A stretch of DNA of 35,256 nucleotides from a virus. The stretch lies in the UHGV virus genome UHGV-1783823, one strand, 5' to 3'. The notes under the pieces were generated by a model. The model did no database searches. It saw only the letters and a list, made by a program, of their open reading frames with translations, and was not told the DNA's origin. Below are positions 18 through 19,934 of this stretch, piece by piece (position 1 is the stretch's first letter; every line of letters starts with the position of its first letter). Made by a program: the position numbers and the translations under genes.

Positions 18-6616
<6,599 letters not shown>

Positions 6617-6618
6617 TA

Positions 6619-7806
6619 ATGGCAGTAGGTGAAATTCAAATTAGTGCCTTGCCTCAAGCAGCCTTACCAATTGACCTTAGTGATATCTTCCATCTTAAGC
6701 AGGGTATTGAGGATAAGAGGTGCACTCTTGAGCAATTGCTTGCTCCACACTCAAGCCTAAGAAATAACCCTCATGGTGTTACTAAAACACAAATTGGTTT
6801 AGATAACGTTATCAATGCTCTTCAGTTAGTTGCTGCAAATAACTTATCAGATGTTACTAATGTAGTTCAGGCAAGAGCAAATCTACAGATTATGTCTTCA
6901 GAAGAGGTTAATAATCTTGTTCAACAGCATATTCAGGACAAGAGCAACCCACATAATACAACTAAGGCACAGGTAGGGTTGAGTAATGTTCAGAACTGGA
7001 CAACATCGAACCTTTATAACGAAGATGCAGACAAGTACGCTACAGCAAGAGCAGTAAATAACTTGTACAAGGCTGTTCAGGCTTCCTATCCAGTAGGTAC
7101 TATCCATCTTTCCATGAACTCTGCAAACCCTTCTACATATTTAATTTGTGGAGGAACTTGGGAGTTAGTTTCAAAAGGTAGGGCATTGGTTGGCTATGAC
7201 TCTGATACAAGACCAGCAGGCTCTGTATTTGGTGCTTCAACTGTCACTTTGTCAGTTAATAACATGCCTCAACACTCTCACTCTGTGTCTCTTAGTGGTG
7301 GTGGTCATACTCATAATGCAACGGTGTCAATTTCAGCTTTTGATTATGGAACTAAGACTACTAACTCTTTTGACTATGGAACTAAGACCACTAACACAAC
7401 TGGTAACCACAACCATGTTGGTAGTGGGTCAACAGGTTCTGCTGGTGCTCATAACCACAGATTGACCTATGAATCAGGCGGTGGTTTATCGGAAAGACCT
7501 GCAATGGTTTGGTCTTCAAGGAATGACCAATCATGGTACTCAGCAGATGCTGTCTGTGAAGTAGCTGGTGCACACACTCACTCTTTCAGTGTTACCACTA
7601 ACACAACTGGTAACCACAACCATACGGTTGGTATTGGTGCTCACAGCCACACAGTTGGTATTGGTTCACATACGCACAATGGTACTGTGACAGTTTCTTC
7701 TTCTGAGCATACACATAGCGGGAACACTAACAGTGTTGGTGGTGGACAAGCTTTCAATATTGAGCAGCCATCCTTCGTACTGTATGTATGGCAGAGAACG
7801 GCTTAA
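6619..7806 (+). CDS. Tail fibre protein (short) with His-x-His repeat C-terminal module
   Basis: C-terminal half has repeated HxH motifs (HSHSVS, GGHTHNAT, GNHNH, GAHSHTVGIGSHTHNG) and ends VLYVWQRTA; C-terminal module shared with the next gene; internal 30-bp tandem duplication. Confidence 0.7.
   Translation: MAVGEIQISALPQAALPIDLSDIFHLKQGIEDKRCTLEQLLAPHSSLRNNPHGVTKTQIGLDNVINALQLVAANNLSDVTNVVQARANLQIMSSEEVNNLVQQHIQDKSNPHNTTKAQVGLSNVQNWTTSNLYNEDADKYATARAVNNLYKAVQASYPVGTIHLSMNSANPSTYLICGGTWELVSKGRALVGYDSDTRPAGSVFGASTVTLSVNNMPQHSHSVSLSGGGHTHNATVSISAFDYGTKTTNSFDYGTKTTNTTGNHNHVGSGSTGSAGAHNHRLTYESGGGLSERPAMVWSSRNDQSWYSADAVCEVAGAHTHSFSVTTNTTGNHNHTVGIGAHSHTVGIGSHTHNGTVTVSSSEHTHSGNTNSVGGGQAFNIEQPSFVLYVWQRTA
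7338..7397 (+). repeat. 30-bp tandem duplication inside short fibre gene (encodes FDYGTKTTNS / FDYGTKTTNT)
   Basis: Two adjacent 30-nt units, 7338-7367 and 7368-7397, differing at about 3 positions. Confidence 0.8.
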
Positions 7807-7815
7807 TTTCTTTAC

Positions 7816-7836
7816 AGGGGCTTTATAGCCCCTTTT
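7816..7836 (+). terminator. Rho-independent terminator-like hairpin between the two fibre genes
   Basis: AGGGGCT-TTAT-AGCCCCT stem-loop followed by a T-run; downstream RBS AAGAGG and ATG at 7853. Confidence 0.6.
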
Positions 7837-7852
7837 AAGAGGAAAATTTATA

Positions 7853-10240
7853 ATGGCAGATTACAAGTTGAGTGAATTAAACTCAATCGATACAATCCGT
7901 TCAGATGACCTTCTTCATGTCAGGGTTAAAAAGAGACCTGAAATGCTTGGCGATGAAGACCGTCGAATGACCTATCAAGATTTCTTAGCATCTTTCAAGC
8001 TTGAAAGATTTGTCCAGATTGCTGGTAGTACTATGACGGGTGACTTAGGGATTGTTAAGCTACTTTATGGTGGTAAAGTAGTATTTAACCCAACAGGCTC
8101 TTCTGAGATTAATATTGGGGACGTTTTAAAGACTTTTAAAATTAACGCAAATGGTCTTAAGCTAACTGTTGCAGATGCTTCAAGGTCGGCAACTGTTTAT
8201 CATACTCTGAATAAGCCAAGCCCTAGTGAGCTTGGGATGAGAACTAATGAAGAGAATGACACGAGATACTCAAGATTAGCTGCAAATAACACCTTTAGAG
8301 GTACTCAAGCTATTCTCTCTGACAATGAAGCCCTTATTGTTAAGAATATCACACAAGGGATGCCACTCTATATTCGTGGTCAAGATGCAGATGGCACCAA
8401 CAGATGGTATCTAGGCAATGATAATAAAGGCACAGACAACCTTGTTTTAAAAAACGTTAAATCTGGTGCATACGTAGCGATTTTAGCTAACCTAATCTCT
8501 GTGAATAAATCAATTCAAATCACTGGTCAAGTTCAACCTTCTGATTGGACTAACTTAGATGCTAGGTATTTTACTCAGACAGCAGCTAATCAGAGGTTTG
8601 CACAGTTAGCTGGTGATAATACCTTTAGAGGCGTGAATACATTTAATCAAATCCTATCAATTGAGACGAATAGTGCAGCCTTAAGGTTAAAAAATACTGT
8701 AGCTAATGGTGCACTGTACATTAAAGGTGAAAGTAATGATGGCTCTGGTAAGTGGTATGTAGGTAATGGTGATAATACACCTGCCGTATTAATTCACAAC
8801 TATACATATGGGTCTAATCTTAGACTCGACAATGGTTATGTTGAGGTTAATAAGCAACTTAAAGTCGTTGGTCAAGTTCAACCTTCTGATTGGACTAACA
8901 TTGACTCTAGATATATTCCGGCAGGAACTTTGAGTAATCTTGCTAAGCTAAGTGGTGTAAACACTTTCAGGTCTGCACAGGTTATCAATCTGAATGGCTC
9001 ATTGTTACAGCTAAAGAACACTACACAAGACAGAGAGCTATACTTTGCTGGTCATAATGCTGATGGTGTTAGAAGGTGGTACATCGGTAATGGGGAACCA
9101 TCCAACCCAACAAGGTTTACTATCCGTAACGACAGAACTGCAACTACGCTTTATATGCAAGACGATTTCTTGTTGGATAAAAATGTCAGAATTACTGGTC
9201 AAGTTCAACCTTCAGATTTCTCTAACTTAGACGCTAGATATTTCTTAAAAACAAAAGTGTTATCCCAATCTTTAATGACAAGGACAGCTAATAGGCTGGA
9301 TGACCCATCATCATTCAATAAAGATTATTCGGGATTTGTAAGAAACAATGGTATTGAGCAGGGTCTGAAAGACTTAGCCATCCACGTAGCACACTCTGCT
9401 GGTATTGCTCATGCCAGAGGTATTGCTTTTACATATGGGTCTAAAGGTCTTGATGTCTTCACATATGCTTATGGAGCAGATGGAGCATATGTTGGGGAGG
9501 CACAGTTGTATTCAACGGTATTTAAACCAACCCCTTCAGATATTGGTGCATACACTAAAGCTGAAACTGACCAGAAGATTGCACAGGCAGTAAGTGACTC
9601 TACAGACCTGAATAAAATCTATCCAGTAGGTATTGTAACGTGGTTTAACAGTAATGTTGACCCTAACACAGCGTTGCCTGGGTTAACTTGGACGTACCTG
9701 AACAATGGTGTTGGTAGAACTATCAGAATTGCAGCAGCAAACGGTTCAGATGTTGCTACAACTGGTGGTTCAGATTCTGTAACGTTGGCTGTTGGTAATT
9801 TACCATCACACACTCACAGTTTCTCTGCTACCACTTCATCTTTTGATTATGGTACGAAGGGCACTAATAGTACTGGTGGTCATACTCACTCTGTAAGTGG
9901 TACAACAAGTGCTGCTGGTAACCACGCCCACCACTTAGGTCTGCTATTGGTTAATGGTGGTGATGCTCAGTATGGTTACACAACTGTTAGCAACAGCAAG
10001 ACAAGAACTCTTGACTGGCTTGACAGAAAAGACAATAAATTCCCTAACACTAACACAACTGGTAACCATACACATACATGGTCTGGTACTACAAGCGGTG
10101 CTGGTGACCATTCCCACTCTGTAGGTATTGGTGCTCACAGCCACACAGTTAGTGGTAATACTGGTAGTACAGGTTCTGGTTCAGCATTTAGTGTTACTAA
10201 CCAGTTCTACAAATTAATGGCTTGGGTGAGAACTGCTTAA
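7853..10240 (+). CDS. Long tail fibre protein with three tandem ~110-aa modules and His-rich C-terminal domain
   Basis: 795 aa; three repeats ending [18 protein letters not shown] / [18 protein letters not shown] / [18 protein letters not shown]; C-terminus has HxH motifs and ends LMAWVRTA, paralogous to 6619-7806. Confidence 0.75.
8270..9247 (+). repeat. Intragenic tandem module repeats (3 x ~330-345 bp) in long fibre gene
   Basis: Near-identical 30-mers GGTCAAGTTCAACCTTCTGATTGGACTAAC at 8525 and 8870, and a related copy at 9197; protein motifs LYI[RK]G..DG...WY[LV]GN repeat in register; outer boundaries approximate. Confidence 0.65.
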
Positions 10241-14021: not shown

Positions 14022-14405
14022 TCAAATACCTGTGCAGCTTCTGTTTTCTAAGAAATACTCAACACCATACATAGCTTTTTGCATCAAATCTTCTTTAAAC
14101 TGGATACGATGATTGAGCATAGCCTGTACATCAATATCATCAGGGTGCTTCTCTTTAATATTTGCAGATTGCAGGAAATACTCTGCAAGAACACGATACT
14201 GATAGTCAGTTACCTTATCAGTCATCTCTGTTAAAGACTCTTCAGAGATTGGTTTAAGTAGTTCACCTTTAGATAGGGCAACACCTTTAACAATCTGGCA
14301 AGTGTCTTCTGGAACACCTGATAAGTCCACATTTGGAAGTTCTGTTGCATTGACTGGTAAATTCATTGCCATAACCATTGCAGCAGCTAATAAAATCTTT
14401 TTCAT
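14022..14405 (-). CDS. Secreted/periplasmic protein with N-terminal signal peptide
   Basis: MKKILLAAAMVMAMNLPVNATE has the n-h-c architecture of a Sec signal peptide with an AxA-like cleavage region. Confidence 0.6.
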   Translation of the reverse strand: MKKILLAAAMVMAMNLPVNATELPNVDLSGVPEDTCQIVKGVALSKGELLKPISEESLTEMTDKVTDYQYRVLAEYFLQSANIKEKHPDDIDVQAMLNHRIQFKEDLMQKAMYGVEYFLENRSCTGI

Positions 14406-14450
14406 AATGACCTCAAAGTTATATTAAATTTTGTATTACATTGAGTATAA

Positions 14451-14497
14451 AAATAAGCTATAACACCTGACTTGTCAACAGATTTTATAGCTTATTT
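14451..14497. promoter_or_regulatory. 13-bp perfect inverted repeat with 21-bp spacer containing a TTGACA hexamer (- strand)
   Basis: AAATAAGCTATAA (14451-14463) and its reverse complement TTATAGCTTATTT (14485-14497); spacer includes TGTCAA at 14473-14478. Confidence 0.5.
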
Positions 14498-14532
14498 GGC
14501 AGATTTTTTATAAGGCTACTGCCATCCTTCCA

Positions 14533-14582
14533 TACCTTACCTAACCAAACCGAACCTCACACAACCAGACCGAGCCGCACCC
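14533..14582. repeat. Pentanucleotide tandem array A, ~10 units, consensus NACCN; G-poor on + strand
   Basis: tacct tacct aacca aaccg aacct cacac aacca gaccg agccg caccc; ACC recurs with exact 5-bp period. Confidence 0.7.
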
Positions 14583-14588
14583 CGCCTT

Positions 14589-14612
14589 ATTAAAAGACCC
14601 TCTTCAAAGACC
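14589..14612. promoter_or_regulatory. Conserved box copy 1 (TTAAAAGACCCTCTTCAAAGACC) following array A
   Basis: ~20 of 24 positions identical to the box at 14749-14771; followed by a 7-bp stem hairpin (AGTCTCA 14626-14632 / TGAGACT 14645-14651). Confidence 0.5.
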
Positions 14613-14664
14613 TTTTAAAAAGGTAAGTCTCATTTTAATGTAGCTGAGACTAACTACCCATACT

Positions 14665-14748
14665 GTACCGCACCTGACCCGACCTGACCAGACCTAACAT
14701 TACCGTGCCACACCGTACCGAACAGAACACTGCCATACCTCACATCAC
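14665..14748. repeat. Pentanucleotide tandem array B, ~16 units, consensus NNACC; - strand reads GGTCT GGTCA GGTCG GGTCA GGTGC GGTAC
   Basis: gtacc gcacc tgacc cgacc tgacc agacc taaca ttacc gtgcc acacc gtacc gaaca gaaca ctgcc atacc tcaca; strict 5-bp register over ~80 bp. Confidence 0.7.
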
Positions 14749-14781
14749 TTAAAAACCCTCTTAGAAGACTCTTAAGTGATG
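14743..14781. promoter_or_regulatory. Conserved box copy 2 (TTAAAAACCCTCTTAGAAGACTC, 14749-14771) embedded in a 10-bp perfect inverted repeat
   Basis: CATCACTTAA (14743-14752) and TTAAGTGATG (14772-14781) are exact reverse complements; the 19-nt loop carries the box core. Confidence 0.5.
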
Positions 14782-14996
14782 CTGGTGAGTACCCGTTGGT
14801 TTATGCTGCTCAGTATACTCACCAAATTTTCTATGTCAACAACTTTTTATATAAAAGTCCTGATAGCTATATGTGTTACAAAACAGAAGATTGTGAACAA
14901 AACACCCATTGCAAAAGATGTGTCCAAAAGCTTACTTGCAATGTATGACAATACAAAGACAACCAGTATAAACAGAATGACTGTACTGAACATAGT

Positions 14997-16100
14997 TTAC
15001 TCATAATCCCTAATAACTAGCCCTACAGGAAACTGTAAAGAACCCTTACGAGTCATCTTCTGGAACTGAACAGTTAAAGGTTTCCCGATAAACTCTTCAG
15101 GATGTTCAGCAAGATACTGTTTCTTCTCATGTGTAGTTTTCCATGAAACATCTACAAAGACGTTAGGAAGAGTCTCTACAACGAACTTACCATGACCACG
15201 CTTATCGGTCTTTACACCAGTCACTTTAAACTCTTCAGTGTGCATCTTCTTGTGCTTAATCAAGAAGTATGAACGGTGACAACACTCATAGAAGGAGTCT
15301 TCAGAGATTGAACGGTACATTGCACCTTCAAACTTAGCTTCAACCCACTTATCATGAGCTTCATCGAACTCTTCCCAAGAGTTAACACGACGAGACTTAA
15401 CAGGAACAACTTTACAGCCATCTCTAAAGTCATTCAATGGTGAAGTCTCAATAATATCTCTACGCTCAGGCCACGTCTTAGTACTATCACAGATATCATA
15501 CCAGTAGAACTTAAGTAAGTGTCTGTCAGGATTGTCTTCATTTTTAATCATGGAGACAATATCTTCTAAGTCCCACCCATGAGCATAAATCTCTCCATCA
15601 AATTCATCAACATCTTTGTGGAGCCTTAACATTGCCATAATGTCGGGTATTAGTTCAGTAGGGATTTTATAAACAGTATTCTCACGAGAGTATGCTGTGA
15701 ATACACTACCAATGCTTAAGTGTCTTGAAATTCTACAACGGACACCATCAAGTTTTGGTTGAGCATCAGCAGGGAACTTCAAATACTTTGCATGGCTAAC
15801 CTTTGCAGCATCATGAGCAAGCTGTACACCCACCTTCTCAGTATTCTGTGCAGACTCTTTTGTGTAAGCATAACCTTTACGGTCAACTTGCTTTTTATAC
15901 TTAGCAGCAACTTCAAAGAGAGCTTGCTGTTCAGCGTCACGCTCATTCTTTTTACCGATGTTTTTAGGTTCTGCTGTATACTCTTCAAACATCATCTTGC
16001 CATTTTCTTTACCATAGGTTGTAATAACTTTGTCACCTACAGCAACACATGACCAGACGTTGAAGGAACCGTCTTTATTTTGTTTGTACAGAATTGTCAT
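14997..16100 (-). CDS. ATP-dependent DNA ligase
   Basis: Nucleotidyltransferase motif I KLDGVRC (KxDGxR, Arg favours ATP-dependent type), DEFDGEIYAHG (motif III-like), EGAMYRS and FLIKHKK (motifs IV/V-like); start set at internal ATG 16100 preceded by RBS AGAGG rather than ORF-track start 16136. Confidence 0.8.
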   Translation of the reverse strand: MTILYKQNKDGSFNVWSCVAVGDKVITTYGKENGKMMFEEYTAEPKNIGKKNERDAEQQALFEVAAKYKKQVDRKGYAYTKESAQNTEKVGVQLAHDAAKVSHAKYLKFPADAQPKLDGVRCRISRHLSIGSVFTAYSRENTVYKIPTELIPDIMAMLRLHKDVDEFDGEIYAHGWDLEDIVSMIKNEDNPDRHLLKFYWYDICDSTKTWPERRDIIETSPLNDFRDGCKVVPVKSRRVNSWEEFDEAHDKWVEAKFEGAMYRSISEDSFYECCHRSYFLIKHKKMHTEEFKVTGVKTDKRGHGKFVVETLPNVFVDVSWKTTHEKKQYLAEHPEEFIGKPLTVQFQKMTRKGSLQFPVGLVIRDYE

Positions 16101-16293
16101 TTTTAACCTCTGAGTGATACCAAGTATTGCAAGCATTACATGCGTAAAGCTCTAAGTCATTTTTATCTGGTTTATGGAAACAGTTTGACCCACAACGACA
16201 CCGGAATAGCTTACCATCAACACGAAGAATGAACGTTTCAAGCTTACCATCTTCTGTAAGAACTGCGTTCTTAAATTTATCTTCTACAGTCAT
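16075..16293 (-). CDS. Zinc-ribbon protein
   Basis: CRCGSNC ... CNACN cysteine clusters; 72 aa. Confidence 0.5.
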   Translation of the reverse strand: MTVEDKFKNAVLTEDGKLETFILRVDGKLFRCRCGSNCFHKPDKNDLELYACNACNTWYHSEVKNDNSVQTK

Positions 16294-16595
16294 TTTCTCT
16301 TACCACCAATTTCTACGTCGATAACTTGAACATCGCCAGCAACATCAAACTTATGAATGATGCTTTCCACAGTGTAAGTCCAACCCTCAATGCGAACCAA
16401 TTCACCTTCTCGTGGTACGATTGGGTTACGTTGAGCTACCGTTGTAGTGGAGTGAACAACGTCATAACGATAGATATAGTTTACTAGGACTTCCATCGTG
16501 AAAACCTCACTCAATAACCGTAGTATGTGATTGACCATTTTTGCCGTAGCTATAAGATGTTGTTGTTTGAGAGTTTGGACATCTGACAACAACAA
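16290..16595 (-). CDS. Hypothetical protein (start uncertain; possibly internal Met at 16496)
   Basis: ORF overlaps the upstream lipoprotein gene by ~89 nt unless an internal start is used. Confidence 0.4.
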   Translation of the reverse strand: MLLSDVQTLKQQHLIATAKMVNHILRLLSEVFTMEVLVNYIYRYDVVHSTTTVAQRNPIVPREGELVRIEGWTYTVESIIHKFDVAGDVQVIDVEIGGKRK

Positions 16596-16767
16596 TATCC
16601 CTACTTATAGCATCACCATGTAACTTGTATACTCTGCAATCTTGCATCTCTGGTGGGAGACTGTAAGAAGCATTTTTATCTTCATAAGAAGGGTTGCAGC
16701 CAGATAGAAAAATAACACCAAGTGCAATTACTGCTTTCCACATAATACTCACCCTATTACTGTTCAC
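16507..16767 (-). CDS. Putative lipoprotein (signal peptide with lipobox LSGC)
   Basis: MWKAVIALGVIFLSGCNPSY: hydrophobic h-region followed by L-S-G-C lipobox; three further Cys in the mature part. Confidence 0.55.
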   Translation of the reverse strand: MNSNRVSIMWKAVIALGVIFLSGCNPSYEDKNASYSLPPEMQDCRVYKLHGDAISRDIVVVRCPNSQTTTSYSYGKNGQSHTTVIE

Positions 16768-16930: not shown

Positions 16931-17143
16931 TCAGATGTCAATATTAATACGCTCACCCTTAAGGACTCCTGTACGGTCTCTTGCAATCTTACCGTCAACA
17001 ATAAGAATGTGTGCAGACCTTAAAGAATCATGATTAAAACCTTTTACGAACTTACTAGGCATCACTACAATAAGCATCTCCTGAATTAACTCTGGAGTGT
17101 AGCAATTGTCATGAAGTTGCTGAATAACGTCTGCAAGTGTCAT
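16931..17143 (-). CDS. Hypothetical protein
   Basis: 70 aa ORF co-oriented downstream of DNA polymerase. Confidence 0.45.
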   Translation of the reverse strand: MTLADVIQQLHDNCYTPELIQEMLIVVMPSKFVKGFNHDSLRSAHILIVDGKIARDRTGVLKGERINIDI

Positions 17144-17204
17144 ATAACCTCCTATACAAGATACAGTATAAGGTACTCTTCCATGAGCACCTTGTCAACA
17201 CTAA

Positions 17205-19904
17205 TTAGTGAACCTCAAGCCAGCTTTTACCAACCTTACCAGTACCTGTAACAAGCGTTTCTTTCTTAAGACCTAAGTTCTTAGAAGCTTGTCCATAATA
17301 CCAGTCAGTAACTGCTTTCACTTCTGCCGTCATACTTTCTGGACATTCCCAACTTGTTTCATCGTGATATGCACAGAGTAAACGAGCACCAATAGCTGGT
17401 TGACGACCATTTAACTTCATTAAGCCTTCGTCAATCATACGACGGCAAGCAAGGTTAATTGCCTCATTTTGAATCTGAGCCTCTGAACCCATGAGCAAAT
17501 AATTCAACAGCTTATGCGGAGATTTACACCACAACCAAGCTCCAGCAACCTTTACAAAACCCCCTTTAGAGATTGCAGCAGTCTTACCAAACACCTCTTC
17601 AAGTGCCTTTTTAGTTGCTTTGTAGTCAGCTTCCAAGTCATCTAACAGCTTCTTAATTTTAGGCAAACGTATAAAGTAAGTCTGTTTAGTCAGCGCACCT
17701 TCCTGAGTAGTCGCAGCTTTAATCGTCTTAGCAAACTTCTCATCACCTGCACCGAACAGCAGTGCATAGATACCATTCTTAGCTTTCTTACGACCTTTGC
17801 TAATCTCATGAAGAAGATTCTCATCCTGAGTAGCTCGACAAGTCAAGATGTCCTGCTCATCATTCAAGCTAAAGTAAATACTGTTCAGTGTATGTGCATC
17901 AGTCCCTGAATAGACAACGTACAGGTCATTCTCAGAGTCATAGCGAAGGTACTTATCAATCTCTGGGTTGAGGTACTCATCAAAATGTTTGCAGTAATAG
18001 CGTCCATCTTCTTGACGAATGAACTCAATTTCTTCTTTACCTTGCGTTACCGCTTTGGTGAAGTCTTTATCACCCATAAAGTTACAAAGTAGAACTAGCT
18101 GGGCTGAGTTCATATCTACAGAGACAACGTTAGTACCTTCCTCACAAATCCACACTGCCCTCATTGGTTCCCCATAGACAGCAGCACCAGACGGTACGTT
18201 TACAATACCATATTGTGTCATACGTCCAGTTGAAGTACCAAACACCATTGCACCAGCACTAAGGCGACCATCAGGACGAATCTGGTTCAACCAACCTTTT
18301 TCATCATCCTTTGAGTTCTCAATAGTTCTGCGTCGGTGCATCAAAGTATAGTACTTAGCAATCTTCTGTCCAAGCTCACCTTCAATCGTATCATAAGATG
18401 ATTCAGTAAGTTTTGGTGAAGTACGGATTAAGCAAGGCTCAAGCAAATCTGTGTACTTCTTCACAGACCAGTTATGCTCAATGTACTGTACACCTTCATG
18501 TTCAACATAGCTCAAACCACACCGCTCAACCATTTCCTGCCACTTAGGATGTTTTGTAATCATCTTTTTATTGTCTTTGAAACGACAAACTTTGACAGGG
18601 CGACCGTCTGAGTCTTTCTTGTAGTTCCAGTCATCTGGAATCCAACCAACTGATTTCAAGTAGTCTTTTACAACTGCTACCTGAGTCATACGAGAAACTT
18701 CAAACTCAATTGGTGTATATGGTGCATCAATCAATCCTGTGTAGCGACTTGACTCAAGTTCAAAGTGGTTAACAACGTGGCTGTTATAGTACTTCACAGT
18801 TTTGACTGTTTTTACTGGCTTCCAGTCTTTGCATTTCTTACCAATCTTTGCATTCAACTCATTGCAAATTGCACGAGCATCCTTCATTGCTACAAAGCCT
18901 TCCTTGTACTCTTCACCAGTTACAGAGTTGGTTGGTGTATAGCAATTTCTCTTTTCAATGTTAAAAATCTTTGTAGTTGGCTTACCAAATGGTTTGATTT
19001 CATAAGTCTGCATCTCACCATTACGCACCTGCTGACGATACTTCGTCTTAGGGTACTTGGTAATTCTTTTCAGTCCATCTGCATGACCAAATGCTTCAAC
19101 ATACTCATTCCAAGCTTTTGCAAACTCTTCTCCAGTGACTTTACCTTTGGTCTTAATAGTTGGAGGTAGATGTGGTTCAACCTCTGAAGCAAGCTCATTA
19201 GTCAACTTGTCAAGTTCCTTTACATGGAACTCCATAAGCTCTTTATCAGCTTTCCAACCATTGATAGCTTGTTGACTCATCCAGAAAGATGTTTCTTTAG
19301 CTCGCATATAGGTTTCATAAGTGTCTATACCACACTTCTTAAGCTTCAGGTATTCATTATCCAGTGCACGTTTAGTTTTGGCGTTAATACGGATATCTTC
19401 TACAACACGAGTGAAGATTTCTGCATTCCACACACCCCAATGTTCAATCTCTGGTTTACGGACACCAACACGAGCACCCCATGCAGCCAAGCCATGAGCA
19501 CCTTTATAGCCTTTTGGAGTTGGTCTATCCATCCACTGAACACGAGACTGGATAAGAGAATCCTGAAAGAAATTACTCCACGGTTTACACTTTGGATTAT
19601 CAAAGTTCCACAAATCAGGTGCAATGTGATTGAAAACCCACCAGTCATATCCTAGACCATTGTGGATGCAAAGTCGTTTTGCCTTTAACGCAAACTCAAT
19701 ACCTTCACGTAAGCCGCCCTTAATGTACTTGGTATACTTGTGACCGAGGATAGGCTCATCTGTAAAGACCCATACAGGTGGCTCTTCATCGTCAGATTTA
19801 TAGTCTGCGAAAGCCATTACGTGCACTTTAGTGAACTCAAGGAGTAAACCATCAGTTTCTGTATCACCAACTAAATGTAAGTTTTTAAAATCTACGTTTT
19901 CCAT
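17205..19904 (-). CDS. DNA polymerase, family A (Pol I/T7-like) with 3-prime-5-prime exonuclease domain
   Basis: Exo I motif DTETDGL; motif A VDMNSAQL; motif B RKKAKNGIYALLFGAG; motif C AYHDE; start set at ATG 19904 preceded by RBS GAGGGAG (ORF-track start 19934 has no RBS). Confidence 0.9.
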   Translation of the reverse strand: MENVDFKNLHLVGDTETDGLLLEFTKVHVMAFADYKSDDEEPPVWVFTDEPILGHKYTKYIKGGLREGIEFALKAKRLCIHNGLGYDWWVFNHIAPDLWNFDNPKCKPWSNFFQDSLIQSRVQWMDRPTPKGYKGAHGLAAWGARVGVRKPEIEHWGVWNAEIFTRVVEDIRINAKTKRALDNEYLKLKKCGIDTYETYMRAKETSFWMSQQAINGWKADKELMEFHVKELDKLTNELASEVEPHLPPTIKTKGKVTGEEFAKAWNEYVEAFGHADGLKRITKYPKTKYRQQVRNGEMQTYEIKPFGKPTTKIFNIEKRNCYTPTNSVTGEEYKEGFVAMKDARAICNELNAKIGKKCKDWKPVKTVKTVKYYNSHVVNHFELESSRYTGLIDAPYTPIEFEVSRMTQVAVVKDYLKSVGWIPDDWNYKKDSDGRPVKVCRFKDNKKMITKHPKWQEMVERCGLSYVEHEGVQYIEHNWSVKKYTDLLEPCLIRTSPKLTESSYDTIEGELGQKIAKYYTLMHRRRTIENSKDDEKGWLNQIRPDGRLSAGAMVFGTSTGRMTQYGIVNVPSGAAVYGEPMRAVWICEEGTNVVSVDMNSAQLVLLCNFMGDKDFTKAVTQGKEEIEFIRQEDGRYYCKHFDEYLNPEIDKYLRYDSENDLYVVYSGTDAHTLNSIYFSLNDEQDILTCRATQDENLLHEISKGRKKAKNGIYALLFGAGDEKFAKTIKAATTQEGALTKQTYFIRLPKIKKLLDDLEADYKATKKALEEVFGKTAAISKGGFVKVAGAWLWCKSPHKLLNYLLMGSEAQIQNEAINLACRRMIDEGLMKLNGRQPAIGARLLCAYHDETSWECPESMTAEVKAVTDWYYGQASKNLGLKKETLVTGTGKVGKSWLEVH

Positions 19905-19934
19905 TTTTACTCCCTCTAAAATCATTAACCTCAT

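What the first reader, a model, noticed from the sequence alone, without database searches (positions are those of the whole stretch)
16507..16767. Lipoprotein encoded inside the early replication operon
A small protein with a clear lipobox (LSGC) after a hydrophobic signal sequence, and three additional cysteines in the mature part, is embedded between polymerase and ligase rather than in a lysis cassette. Early-expressed phage lipoproteins are known to block receptors or mediate superinfection exclusion (for example T5 Llp, as I recall). It could also be an outer-membrane spanin component, though no endolysin is nearby.
Basis: partly seen in the sequence, partly recalled or inferred. Interest (0 to 1): 0.5.

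Follow-up and report, generated by a model that had tools for sequence, protein, structure and literature searches.

The report
Conserved early phage lipoprotein (DUF4884)
A real, strongly conserved gene for a tiny lipid-anchored envelope protein sits among the DNA-replication genes of a Felix O1-like phage; it belongs to a large uncharacterised family of phage lipoproteins, is not the phage's lysis (spanin) protein and is not related to the T5/T1 exclusion lipoproteins, so its role, probably remodelling the infected cell's envelope, is still open.

Summary
The window is a Felixounavirus (Felix O1-like) genome segment. The ORF at 16507-16767 (-) is a real gene under purifying selection (dN/dS 0.03-0.28). 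It is the only ORF in the window that passes the PROSITE lipobox rule (LSGC, Cys16 counted from ATG 16743). The mature part has two further cysteines, not three. Both are invariant across the family and probably form a disulfide.

The gene lies in a tightly packed same-strand block between the DNA polymerase and ligase genes. It is the ortholog of Felix O1 ORF91, annotated "hypothetical protein". It belongs to phrog_902 and Pfam DUF4884. That family has about 1,276 clusters, nearly all small lipoproteins of virulent phages of Gram-negative hosts. Members sit in early or nucleotide-metabolism regions and have no conserved neighbour.

It is not an o-spanin. The genus has its own overlapped i-/o-spanin pair elsewhere, and the neighbours here lack transmembrane segments. 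Some family members appear to be inner-membrane anchored (Asp+2, or a TM anchor replacing the lipobox). It is not homologous to T5 Llp or T1 Cor, it is not next to tail-fibre genes, and Felixounaviruses use LPS rather than a protein receptor. No fold match was found.

Best guess: an early, periplasm-facing, membrane-tethered envelope effector of the superinfection-exclusion type. This function is inferred, not shown.

The parts
16507..16767 (-). Maximal ORF of the lipoprotein gene (GTG start, 86 aa; stop codon at 16507-16509)
   Evidence: The same upstream GTG start is the one annotated for the ortholog Felix O1 ORF91.
16507..16743 (-). CDS from the in-frame ATG (78 aa). JohannRWettstein bas63_0042 is annotated at this 78-aa length. 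The mature product is the same for either start.
16748..16755 (-). Shine-Dalgarno-like AGGGTGAG, ending 4 nt upstream of ATG 16743. The upstream gene's TAA stop is at 16757-16759.
   Evidence: read directly from the sequence
16699..16743 (-). Type II (lipoprotein) signal peptide, residues 1-15 (MWKAVIALGVIFLSG). Predicted LspA cleavage is between G15 and C16.
   Evidence: The signal peptide plus lipobox is conserved in 197 of 200 family members.
16696..16707 (-). Lipobox L13-S14-G15-C16. C16 (16696-16698) is the predicted lipidated N-terminal Cys, followed by Asn at +2.
   Evidence: C16 is nearly invariant in the 149-sequence alignment.
16510..16698 (-). Mature 63-aa domain (about 7.1 kDa), predicted to be a small beta-sheet (strands 19-22, 37-42, 50-55, 60-66, 69-75). 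Family motif: LPxE[LM]xDCx[VI]Y ... VVRCPNSxTTT.
16636..16638 (-). Cys36, invariant. Inferred disulfide partner of Cys55.
16579..16581 (-). Cys55, invariant (VVRCPNS motif). Inferred disulfide partner of Cys36; the spacing between the two is 17-21 residues across the family.
17205..19934 (-). DNA polymerase A gene, at the head of the same-strand block (context)
14997..16136 (-). ATP-dependent DNA ligase gene, downstream in the same block (context)

Best explanation
The gene encodes a small bacterial-type lipoprotein of the DUF4884/phrog_902 family. It is the ortholog of Felix O1 ORF91.

Shown or directly supported: it is a real gene under purifying selection. It has a canonical type II signal peptide and lipobox. 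Its roughly 60-aa mature domain carries two invariant cysteines. It sits in a tightly packed same-strand gene block running from the DNA polymerase gene to the ligase gene.

Inferred from established lipoprotein biogenesis: the precursor is exported by Sec, diacylglyceryl-modified on Cys16 by Lgt, cleaved by LspA, and N-acylated by Lnt. [quoted passage not shown] DsbA probably joins Cys36 and Cys55, stapling a beta-hairpin.

Inferred function: it is made together with the replication genes (early or middle), and the membrane-tethered periplasmic domain acts alone on a conserved envelope component of the infected cell. The most likely role is of the superinfection-exclusion or 'lytic conversion' type, such as blocking a periplasmic step of entry by later phages. 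It is unlikely to act by plugging a specific outer-membrane protein receptor, and it has no part in spanin-mediated lysis.
For: - Phage identity: Felixounavirus.
- Unique lipobox: it is the only lipobox ORF among 585 start/ORF combinations in the window.
- Selection: dN/dS 0.03-0.28 against 21 orthologs.
- Family assignment: phrog_902 at E=1.6e-16. PF16225:DUF4884 is listed for orthologs and relatives in precomputed tables.
- Family size: 1,276 50%-identity clusters at E<=1e-3 and 687 at E<=1e-10, with the 150 listed hits 66-154 aa long.
- Lipoprotein character of the family: 197 of 200 members have a hydrophobic stretch plus [GASC]-Cys.
- Cysteines: C36 and C55 are invariant, and the spacings are fixed.
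- Fold: predicted small beta-sheet, pLDDT 70, with the core at 77-85.
- Spread: Felixounavirus, Seunavirus 4MG, jumbo E. coli and Serratia phages, Vibrio Demerecviridae, Acinetobacter Obolenskvirus, Aeromonas T4-likes and T1-like Henu8.
- Genomic setting: always among small early genes or nucleotide-metabolism genes such as ligases, PNK, NUDIX, NT5C and HD.
- Stand-alone gene: no conserved neighbour across 21 diverse loci.
- Operon structure here: gaps or overlaps of 62 nt or less, and no terminator-like site between the polymerase gene and the 3' end of the ligase gene.
- Precedent: early phage lipoproteins acting in exclusion (T5 Llp; PMC9586334).
- Spanin role already filled elsewhere in the genus.
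Against: - There is no direct evidence for exclusion or for any phenotype.
- Expression timing is inferred from gene position only.
- The family occurs in phages with unrelated receptors, so any target must be generic.
- About 18% of members have Asp at +2, and one has a TM signal-anchor instead of a lipobox. The membrane of residence is therefore not conserved.
- The family is nearly absent from bacterial genomes and prophages in the pattern scan (1 locus), although exclusion genes are common in temperate phages.
- Two metagenomic variants are frameshifted, which suggests the gene can be dispensable.
Confidence: 0.4

Rival explanations
1. A periplasmic envelope effector with a role other than exclusion. 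Examples would be an inhibitor of a host periplasmic or envelope enzyme or stress sensor (Rcs-, Cpx- or sigmaE-type signalling, peptidoglycan hydrolases, nucleases), or a counter-measure against an envelope-associated defence system. It would keep the infected cell's envelope stable or silent during replication.
For: - The family is restricted to virulent phages and nearly absent from bacterial genomes in the pattern scan.
- It occurs in phages with unrelated receptors.
- The anchor type and membrane appear interchangeable (Asp+2 variants, a TM-anchored variant). This fits a soluble or periplasm-spanning target better than an outer-membrane receptor.
- It is a stand-alone gene in early regions.
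Against: There is no similarity to any known inhibitor or anti-defence family, no fold match, and no candidate target identified.
Confidence: 0.25
2. An Llp/Cor-like receptor blocker. The lipoprotein would bind the periplasmic face of a specific outer-membrane protein receptor and inactivate it.
For: It is similar in size (about 60 aa mature) and, like Llp and Cor, has a lipidated Cys plus two further cysteines. The +2 Asn predicts outer-membrane sorting. Llp is expressed early.
Against: - The mature domain is not homologous to Llp (probability 2.6%) or Cor (0.2%). The 90% full-length hit is the signal peptide plus about 10 residues.
- The gene is more than 6 kb from, and on the opposite strand to, the tail-fibre genes, whereas llp lies next to pb5 and cor lies just downstream of the T1 tail genes.
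- Felixounaviruses are reported to use LPS and not protein receptors.
- The same conserved domain occurs in phages with very different receptors.
Confidence: 0.1
3. A lysis-related accessory, for example a regulator of lysis timing or a protector against lysis from without, that is not itself a spanin.
For: It is a periplasmic, membrane-tethered small protein in virulent phages. T4 offers precedents of early periplasmic lysis or exclusion regulators (RI, Sp; background knowledge, not tested here).
Against: It is never adjacent to holin, endolysin or spanin genes in the loci examined. It has no similarity to known antiholins or to Sp.
Confidence: 0.1
4. An o-spanin (Rz1-like outer-membrane lipoprotein of the spanin complex), or a u-spanin.
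For: It is a small lipoprotein. One relative is labelled 'putative spanin' by a depositor (Vibrio phage PhiImVa-1).
Against: - The genus has its own overlapped i-/o-spanin pair (bas63_0089/0090) with a TM segment and a lipobox, conserved in 254 records.
- No adjacent gene here has a TM segment (best 19-aa hydropathy 0.92 or less, against 1.75 for the i-spanin).
- There is no C-terminal TM segment, so it is not a u-spanin like T1 gp11.
- There is no conserved partner gene in 21 loci.
- Some members are predicted to be inner-membrane anchored.
- hhalign probability against the genus o-spanin is 0.16%.
Confidence: 0.03
5. A chance ORF or non-functional remnant with a fortuitous lipobox.
For: It is short, it is annotated only as hypothetical, and two frameshifted variants exist.
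Against: dN/dS is 0.03-0.28. The family has about 1,276 clusters with a conserved lipobox and invariant cysteines. It is the only lipobox ORF in the window.
Confidence: 0.01

Closest known systems
Pfam DUF4884 (PF16225) / PHROG phrog_902: uncharacterised small lipoproteins, including Felix O1 ORF91 (NP_944949.1) and JohannRWettstein bas63_0042
   Same: Direct membership. It is 100% identical to the protein of Salmonella phage vB_Si_DR094. phrog_902 matches at E=1.6e-16. It has the same lipobox, the two invariant Cys and the VVRCPNSxTTT motif.
   Different: Nothing structural differs. The family itself has no assigned function. The DUF4884 label comes from precomputed tables and was not reproduced by the local Pfam-A scan.
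Phage T5 Llp (lytic conversion lipoprotein; blocks FhuA from the periplasmic side)
   Same: It is a small, early lipoprotein of a virulent phage, with a mature part of about 60 aa and two non-lipidated cysteines. Llp is periplasm-facing at the outer membrane (PMC9586334).
   Different: The mature domains are not homologous, and the cysteine topology differs (Llp's second Cys is near the C-terminus). llp is adjacent to the receptor-binding gene pb5; this gene is not near tail-fibre genes. T5 uses a protein receptor, whereas Felixounaviruses use LPS.
Cor superinfection-exclusion lipoprotein of T1/phi80/N15
   Same: It is a small phage lipoprotein that, like Cor, has two further cysteines in the mature part.
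   Different: There is no homology (hhalign probability 0.2%). cor lies just downstream of the tail genes in T1 and acts on FhuA-dependent phages.
o-spanins (lambda Rz1 type), including the genus's own bas63_0090
   Same: It is a small lipoprotein with a +2 residue compatible with outer-membrane sorting.
   Different: It is not paired with an i-spanin and not in a lysis context. It is not homologous to bas63_0090. The genus already has a spanin pair. Some relatives are predicted to be inner-membrane anchored.
T4 Sp (spackle) and Imm; plasmid RP4 TrbK entry-exclusion lipoprotein (functional analogues, from background knowledge)
   Same: These are small envelope-located proteins that block entry of incoming DNA without occupying the surface receptor. 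This is the kind of receptor-independent mechanism that would fit the family's wide distribution.
   Different: There is no detectable sequence relationship. The only hit is a sub-threshold TrbK_RP4 match (E=0.019) to one relative, lying mainly over its N-terminal signal-peptide region. Sp is soluble and Imm is an integral membrane protein.

Membership tests
Bacterial lipoprotein (Lgt/LspA substrate; PROSITE PS00013/PS51257 rule) | A K or R within the first 7 residues, followed by an uncharged hydrophobic stretch | tested here: met
   K3 (ATG form) or R5 (GTG form). The h-region AVIALGVIFLS has Kyte-Doolittle 2.75.
Bacterial lipoprotein (Lgt/LspA substrate; PROSITE PS00013/PS51257 rule) | Lipobox [LIVMFWSTAG](2)-[LIVMFYSTAGCQ]-[AGS]-C with the Cys at position 15-35 | tested here: met
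   F-L-S-G-C, with Cys at position 16 (ATG form) or 24 (GTG form). It is the only ORF of 585 start/ORF combinations in the window to pass. A hydrophobic stretch plus [GASC]-Cys is conserved in 197 of 200 relatives.
Bacterial lipoprotein (Lgt/LspA substrate; PROSITE PS00013/PS51257 rule) | Actual lipidation and LspA (globomycin-sensitive) processing | not testable with these tools
   Needs palmitate labelling, a globomycin test and a C16A mutant.
DUF4884 / phrog_902 | Significant match to the family profile | tested here: met
   phrog_902 at E=1.6e-16 over residues 1-76. PF16225:DUF4884 is listed without a weak or faint mark for orthologs and relatives. The local Pfam-A scan did not return it, and this discrepancy is unexplained.
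DUF4884 / phrog_902 | Family hallmarks: two invariant Cys about 20 and about 39 residues after the lipid Cys, and the CP[NQ][ST]xT motif | tested here: met
   C36 and C55 are invariant in 149 sequences. Spacings are given.
o-spanin (two-component spanin, Rz1-like) | Gene embedded in, overlapping or adjacent to an i-spanin gene (an N-terminal TM protein with a periplasmic coiled coil) | tested here: not met
   The four flanking genes have no TM segment. There is no conserved neighbour in 21 loci. The genus's spanin pair lies elsewhere.
o-spanin (two-component spanin, Rz1-like) | Outer-membrane lipoprotein anchoring conserved across homologs | tested here: not met
   35 of 197 relatives have Asp at +2, and one has a TM signal-anchor instead of a lipobox. 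The window protein itself has Asn at +2, which is compatible with outer-membrane sorting.
u-spanin (T1 gp11 type) | N-terminal lipobox plus a C-terminal transmembrane segment | tested here: not met
   The best 19-aa hydropathy in the mature domain is 0.35.
T5 Llp / T1-phi80 Cor exclusion lipoproteins | Sequence homology of the mature domain | tested here: not met
   hhalign of the mature-only family profile gives probability 2.6% against Llp and 0.2% against Cor. The full-length 90% hit is confined to the signal peptide plus about 10 residues.
T5 Llp / T1-phi80 Cor exclusion lipoproteins | Gene placed next to the receptor-binding or tail-tip genes | tested here: not met
   By synteny with JohannRWettstein and Felix O1, the tail-fibre genes are at 6619-10240 on the + strand, more than 6 kb from this gene, with over ten genes in between. 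llp is adjacent to pb5, and cor follows the T1 tail genes.
T5 Llp / T1-phi80 Cor exclusion lipoproteins | The phage uses an outer-membrane protein receptor that the lipoprotein inactivates | tested here: not met
T5 Llp / T1-phi80 Cor exclusion lipoproteins | Expression confers exclusion or an adsorption block | not testable with these tools
   Needs plasmid expression with adsorption and efficiency-of-plating assays.

The most novel reading that the evidence does not exclude
DUF4884 lipoproteins are a pan-virulent-phage, receptor-independent envelope effector. A roughly 60-aa disulfide-stapled periplasmic domain, tethered to either membrane, would target one conserved component of the Gram-negative envelope. 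Candidates include a step of periplasmic DNA transit, a cell-wall enzyme or an envelope-stress or defence sensor. Such a mechanism would be shared by Felix O1-like, rV5-like, T1-like, T5-like, T4-like and jumbo phages and would be distinct from Llp/Cor, Sp/Imm and spanins.
Probability: 0.2. Interest if true: 0.6.

Novelty: new member of a known kind. Interest (0 to 1): 0.3.

Why it matters
The gene itself is ordinary. It is already deposited as a hypothetical protein and belongs to a catalogued DUF. The family, however, is large (about 1,276 clusters in the search done here) and was found in many families of virulent phages of Enterobacteria, Vibrio, Aeromonas and Acinetobacter, several of which have been isolated or proposed for phage therapy and biocontrol. 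Finding its target would assign a function to a recurrent early 'dark-matter' gene. It could also reveal a generic way in which lytic phages manipulate or protect the envelope of the infected cell. Practically, the analysis corrects occasional mis-annotation of these proteins as spanins.

Tried and rejected
- o-spanin and u-spanin readings were rejected.
- Homology to T5 Llp: the full-length profile hit (probability 90%) is a signal-peptide artefact, and the mature-only comparison gives 2.6%. T1 Cor gives 0.2%.
- Pfam-A, NCBIfam and PADLOC scans gave no significant hits beyond signal-peptide similarity.
- A profile search of PDB sequences returned only a signal-peptide match to FlgP at E=1.4.
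- A search for a conserved partner gene across 21 loci found none.
- Membrane or exported proteins among the three genes either side were 18/96 against 21/198 further away, Fisher p=0.066, which is not significant.
- The genome-contig scan found a single bacterial locus (Hylemonella, in what looks like a variable island) and was uninformative. The pattern used was narrow.
- Literature searches for DUF4884, PF16225, phage-encoded lipoproteins and Felix O1 lipoproteins found no functional study.
- The promoter and terminator scan gives no internal promoter for the gene and cannot establish timing.

Full report
**What the window is.** A 6-kb stretch around the finding is 92-97% identical at the nucleotide level to many Escherichia, Salmonella and Shigella phages of the genus Felixounavirus (Felix O1-like myoviruses). 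It matches 266 records. By synteny with JohannRWettstein (Bas63) and Felix O1, the window is laid out as follows:
- Tail, baseplate and tail-fibre genes on the + strand up to about 10.9 kb.
- A leftward block from 19934 to 10922 that runs polymerase, small ORFs, ligase, small ORFs, DHFR and thymidylate synthase.
- A rightward block of dNMP kinase, primase/helicase, exonuclease and ribonucleotide reductase genes.

**Checking the observation.**
- The minus-strand ORF 16507..16767 exists. From its GTG start it encodes 86 aa.
- An in-frame ATG at 16743 gives a 78-aa protein (MWKAVIALGVIFLSGC...). It is preceded by AGGGTGAG and lies 13 nt after the upstream gene's stop codon. JohannRWettstein bas63_0042 is annotated at this 78-aa length.
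- Felix O1 ORF91 has no ATG at that position and is annotated from the upstream GTG. Both starts are therefore plausible. They give the same mature protein after signal-peptide cleavage.
- Applying the PROSITE lipoprotein rule to all 585 start/ORF combinations of at least 50 aa in all six frames of the window returns only this ORF.
- Pairwise dN/dS against 21 Felixounavirus orthologs from IMG/VR is 0.03-0.28, with dS up to about 2. The reading frame is therefore under strong purifying selection.
The mature protein has the lipidated Cys16 plus Cys36 and Cys55.
- The position between the polymerase gene (17205..19934) and the ligase gene (14997..16136) is correct. The genes in between are separated by gaps or overlaps of 62 nt or less. 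No terminator-like site occurs before the 3' end of the ligase gene. No endolysin lies in the window.

**What the protein is.**
- It matches phrog_902 ("unknown function") at E=1.6e-16.
- Its orthologs and relatives carry a precomputed Pfam assignment, PF16225 = DUF4884. The local Pfam-A scan never returned that family, and I could not resolve the discrepancy.
- A profile search of 1.84 billion representative proteins found 1,276 clusters at E<=1e-3 and 687 at E<=1e-10. The 150 listed hits are 66-154 aa long.
- Of 200 retrieved members, 197 have a hydrophobic stretch followed by [GASC]-Cys.
- Across 149 aligned sequences, Cys36 and Cys55 are invariant, and C16, P30, P56, T60, G67 and K68 are nearly so. 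The consensus is LPxELxDCKxYxL ... VVRCPNSxTxT ... GK.
- The second Cys lies about 20 residues after the lipid Cys, and the third lies 17-21 residues further on.
- AlphaFold2 with the 149-sequence alignment gives a modest model (pLDDT 70; core 77-85). It is a small beta-sheet in which C36 and C55 lie at the two flanks of the 37-42/50-55 strand pair. I infer, but did not measure, a disulfide stapling that hairpin.

**Where the family occurs.** tblastn and locus retrieval show conserved members in the following groups:
- Felixounavirus, including Felix O1 ORF91
- Seunavirus phage 4MG and its relatives
- Jumbo E. coli and Serratia phages (Turkey3, BF)
- Vibrio Demerecviridae
- A 77-kb Vibrio phage
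- Acinetobacter Obolenskvirus
- Aeromonas T4-like phages (PX29, Aeh1, phiAS5)
- The T1-like phage Henu8

In every locus examined, the gene sits among small early-type ORFs and nucleotide-metabolism genes. These include ligases, polynucleotide kinase, NUDIX, NT5C, HD hydrolases, RNase H, DHFR and NAMPT. An all-against-all comparison of same-strand neighbours across 21 diverse loci found no recurring partner gene. Membrane or exported proteins are only weakly and non-significantly enriched nearby (p=0.066). A narrow pattern scan of 185,579 species-representative bacterial genomes found one locus, in Hylemonella. A Bacteroides thetaiotaomicron protein (BT_3183) is also annotated as DUF4884 in the literature.

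**Spanin reading.** JohannRWettstein has an annotated overlapped i-spanin/o-spanin pair (bas63_0089/0090). The i-spanin has a clear N-terminal TM segment and the o-spanin has an MSGC lipobox. The pair is far from this locus, and so is the endolysin gene. That 511-bp spanin locus is conserved in 254 phage records, essentially the whole genus. Here, the two genes on either side of the lipoprotein gene have no TM segment: the best 19-aa hydropathy is 0.92 or less, against 1.75 for the i-spanin. The mature lipoprotein has no C-terminal TM segment. The family profile shows no similarity to the genus's o-spanin. In addition, 35 of 197 relatives have Asp at +2, which is the classical Lol-avoidance (inner-membrane retention) signal in Enterobacteria. 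One relative replaces the lipobox with an N-terminal TM signal-anchor. An o-spanin must be in the outer membrane. I therefore reject the spanin reading.

**Llp/Cor reading.** The T5 Llp sequence I recalled was verified as 100% identical to llp in T5 records. A full-length profile comparison gave 90% probability, but it covered only the signal peptide and about 10 further residues. With signal peptides removed, the probability falls to 2.6%. For T1 Cor it is 0.2%. Llp is encoded next to pb5 and acts on the protein receptor FhuA (PMC9586334). This gene lies more than 6 kb from the tail-fibre genes and on the opposite strand. Felix O1-like phages are described as targeting LPS and not protein receptors (PMC8594841). 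The protein is therefore not a member of the Llp/Cor families. A receptor-plugging mechanism is also unlikely, because the same conserved domain occurs in phages with quite different receptors.

**Most likely mechanism.**
- Shown: a conserved gene for a protein with a canonical type II signal peptide, located in the replication-gene block.
- Inferred from the established Sec/Lgt/LspA/Lnt/Lol and DsbA pathways: export, lipidation of Cys16, cleavage before Cys16, probable outer-membrane sorting (Asn at +2), and a C36-C55 disulfide.
- Inferred from context and precedent: co-expression with the replication genes, and a stand-alone periplasmic activity on a conserved envelope component.

I favour a role of the superinfection-exclusion or lytic-conversion type by a receptor-independent mechanism (about 0.4). 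Second is some other envelope effector, such as an inhibitor of a periplasmic enzyme or stress sensor or an anti-defence factor (about 0.25). A specific receptor blocker (0.1), a lysis accessory (0.1), a spanin (0.03) and an artefact (0.01) trail behind. None of the functional options could be tested with these tools.

**Novelty and verdict.** The sequence is already in GenBank. It is 100% identical to a hypothetical protein of Salmonella phage vB_Si_DR094, and its family is catalogued as a DUF and a PHROG without function. No functional study was found. It is a new member of a known kind (a small phage lipoprotein) and of modest interest. The residual interest lies in the size and breadth of the family and its restriction to virulent phages.

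Noticed in passing
window 14022..14405 (-): A 127-aa protein with a Sec-type cleavable signal peptide (MKKILLAAAMVMAMNLPVNA|TE). It matches phrog_4332 (unknown function) and corresponds by position and length to Felix O1 ORF87. It is a second exported protein in the same leftward block.
   Followed up: partly
window 14847..14993 (-), within the 14406-14996 spacer: A 48-aa very hydrophobic protein (probably two TM helices; 19-aa hydropathy 2.64) lies just downstream of the ligase gene, in the same position and at the same length as bas63_0038. The spacer carries two strong sigma70-like promoters on the minus strand (14839..14812 TTGACA/16/TATACT and 14478..14450). It is variable between genomes: Felix O1 has no ORF annotated there, and SeKF_63 has extra genes.
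   Followed up: partly
window 17144..17204, between ORF 16931..17143 and the end of the polymerase gene: Only 61 nt lie here. Felix O1 (ORF94/95), JohannRWettstein (bas63_0045/0046) and SeKF_63 carry an extra ORF of about 69 aa plus an HNH homing endonuclease at this position. This is a presence/absence polymorphism of a homing endonuclease.
   Followed up: partly
window 16075..16293 (-): A 72-aa protein with a CRCGSNC...CNACN zinc-ribbon-like cysteine pattern (phrog_5768, unknown function). It overlaps the annotated start region of the ligase gene.
   Followed up: no
L048 (IMG/VR contig 3300014059_000008) 4962..5303; family-wide statistics: One family member carries the conserved DC...VVRCPNS domain behind an N-terminal TM signal-anchor instead of a lipobox. 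About 18% of members have Asp at +2. The membrane to which the domain is tethered is therefore apparently not conserved.
   Followed up: partly
proteins P0013 and P0014 (metagenomic contigs): Two Felixounavirus-like variants of the lipoprotein are frameshifted after residue 47-48, with an out-of-frame tail ...YCCCQMSKLSNNNIL. This may reflect pseudogenisation or sequencing error.
   Followed up: no
database observation (orthologs P0001-P0059, L011, L049-L053): The precomputed tables list PF16225 (DUF4884) for essentially all family members without a weak or faint mark. The local Pfam-A hmmscan never returns this family, even at E<=10 (against 9, 31, 46, 86-88). The model may be missing from the local copy.
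   Followed up: partly
L012 (Hylemonella gracilis ATCC 19624 contig) 5983..6261: This is the only bacterial-genome hit of the pattern scan. It is a 92-aa family member with lipobox LAGC and Asp at +2. Nearby ORFs include a short regulator-like ORF, another ORF with a lipobox-like motif and a 488-aa ORF with a hydrophobic N-terminus, which looks like a variable genomic island rather than a recognisable prophage.
   Followed up: no
C-terminal extensions of family members (L037, L042, L043, L045, L047, L049; L046, L053): Many relatives extend beyond the Felix-type C-terminus (..TTVIE) with one of two recurrent motifs: 'VVIDGxxYxK', or a helical 'LxKL[ST]xEEKxALG[IL]' tail. These may be optional add-on modules of unknown meaning.
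   Followed up: no
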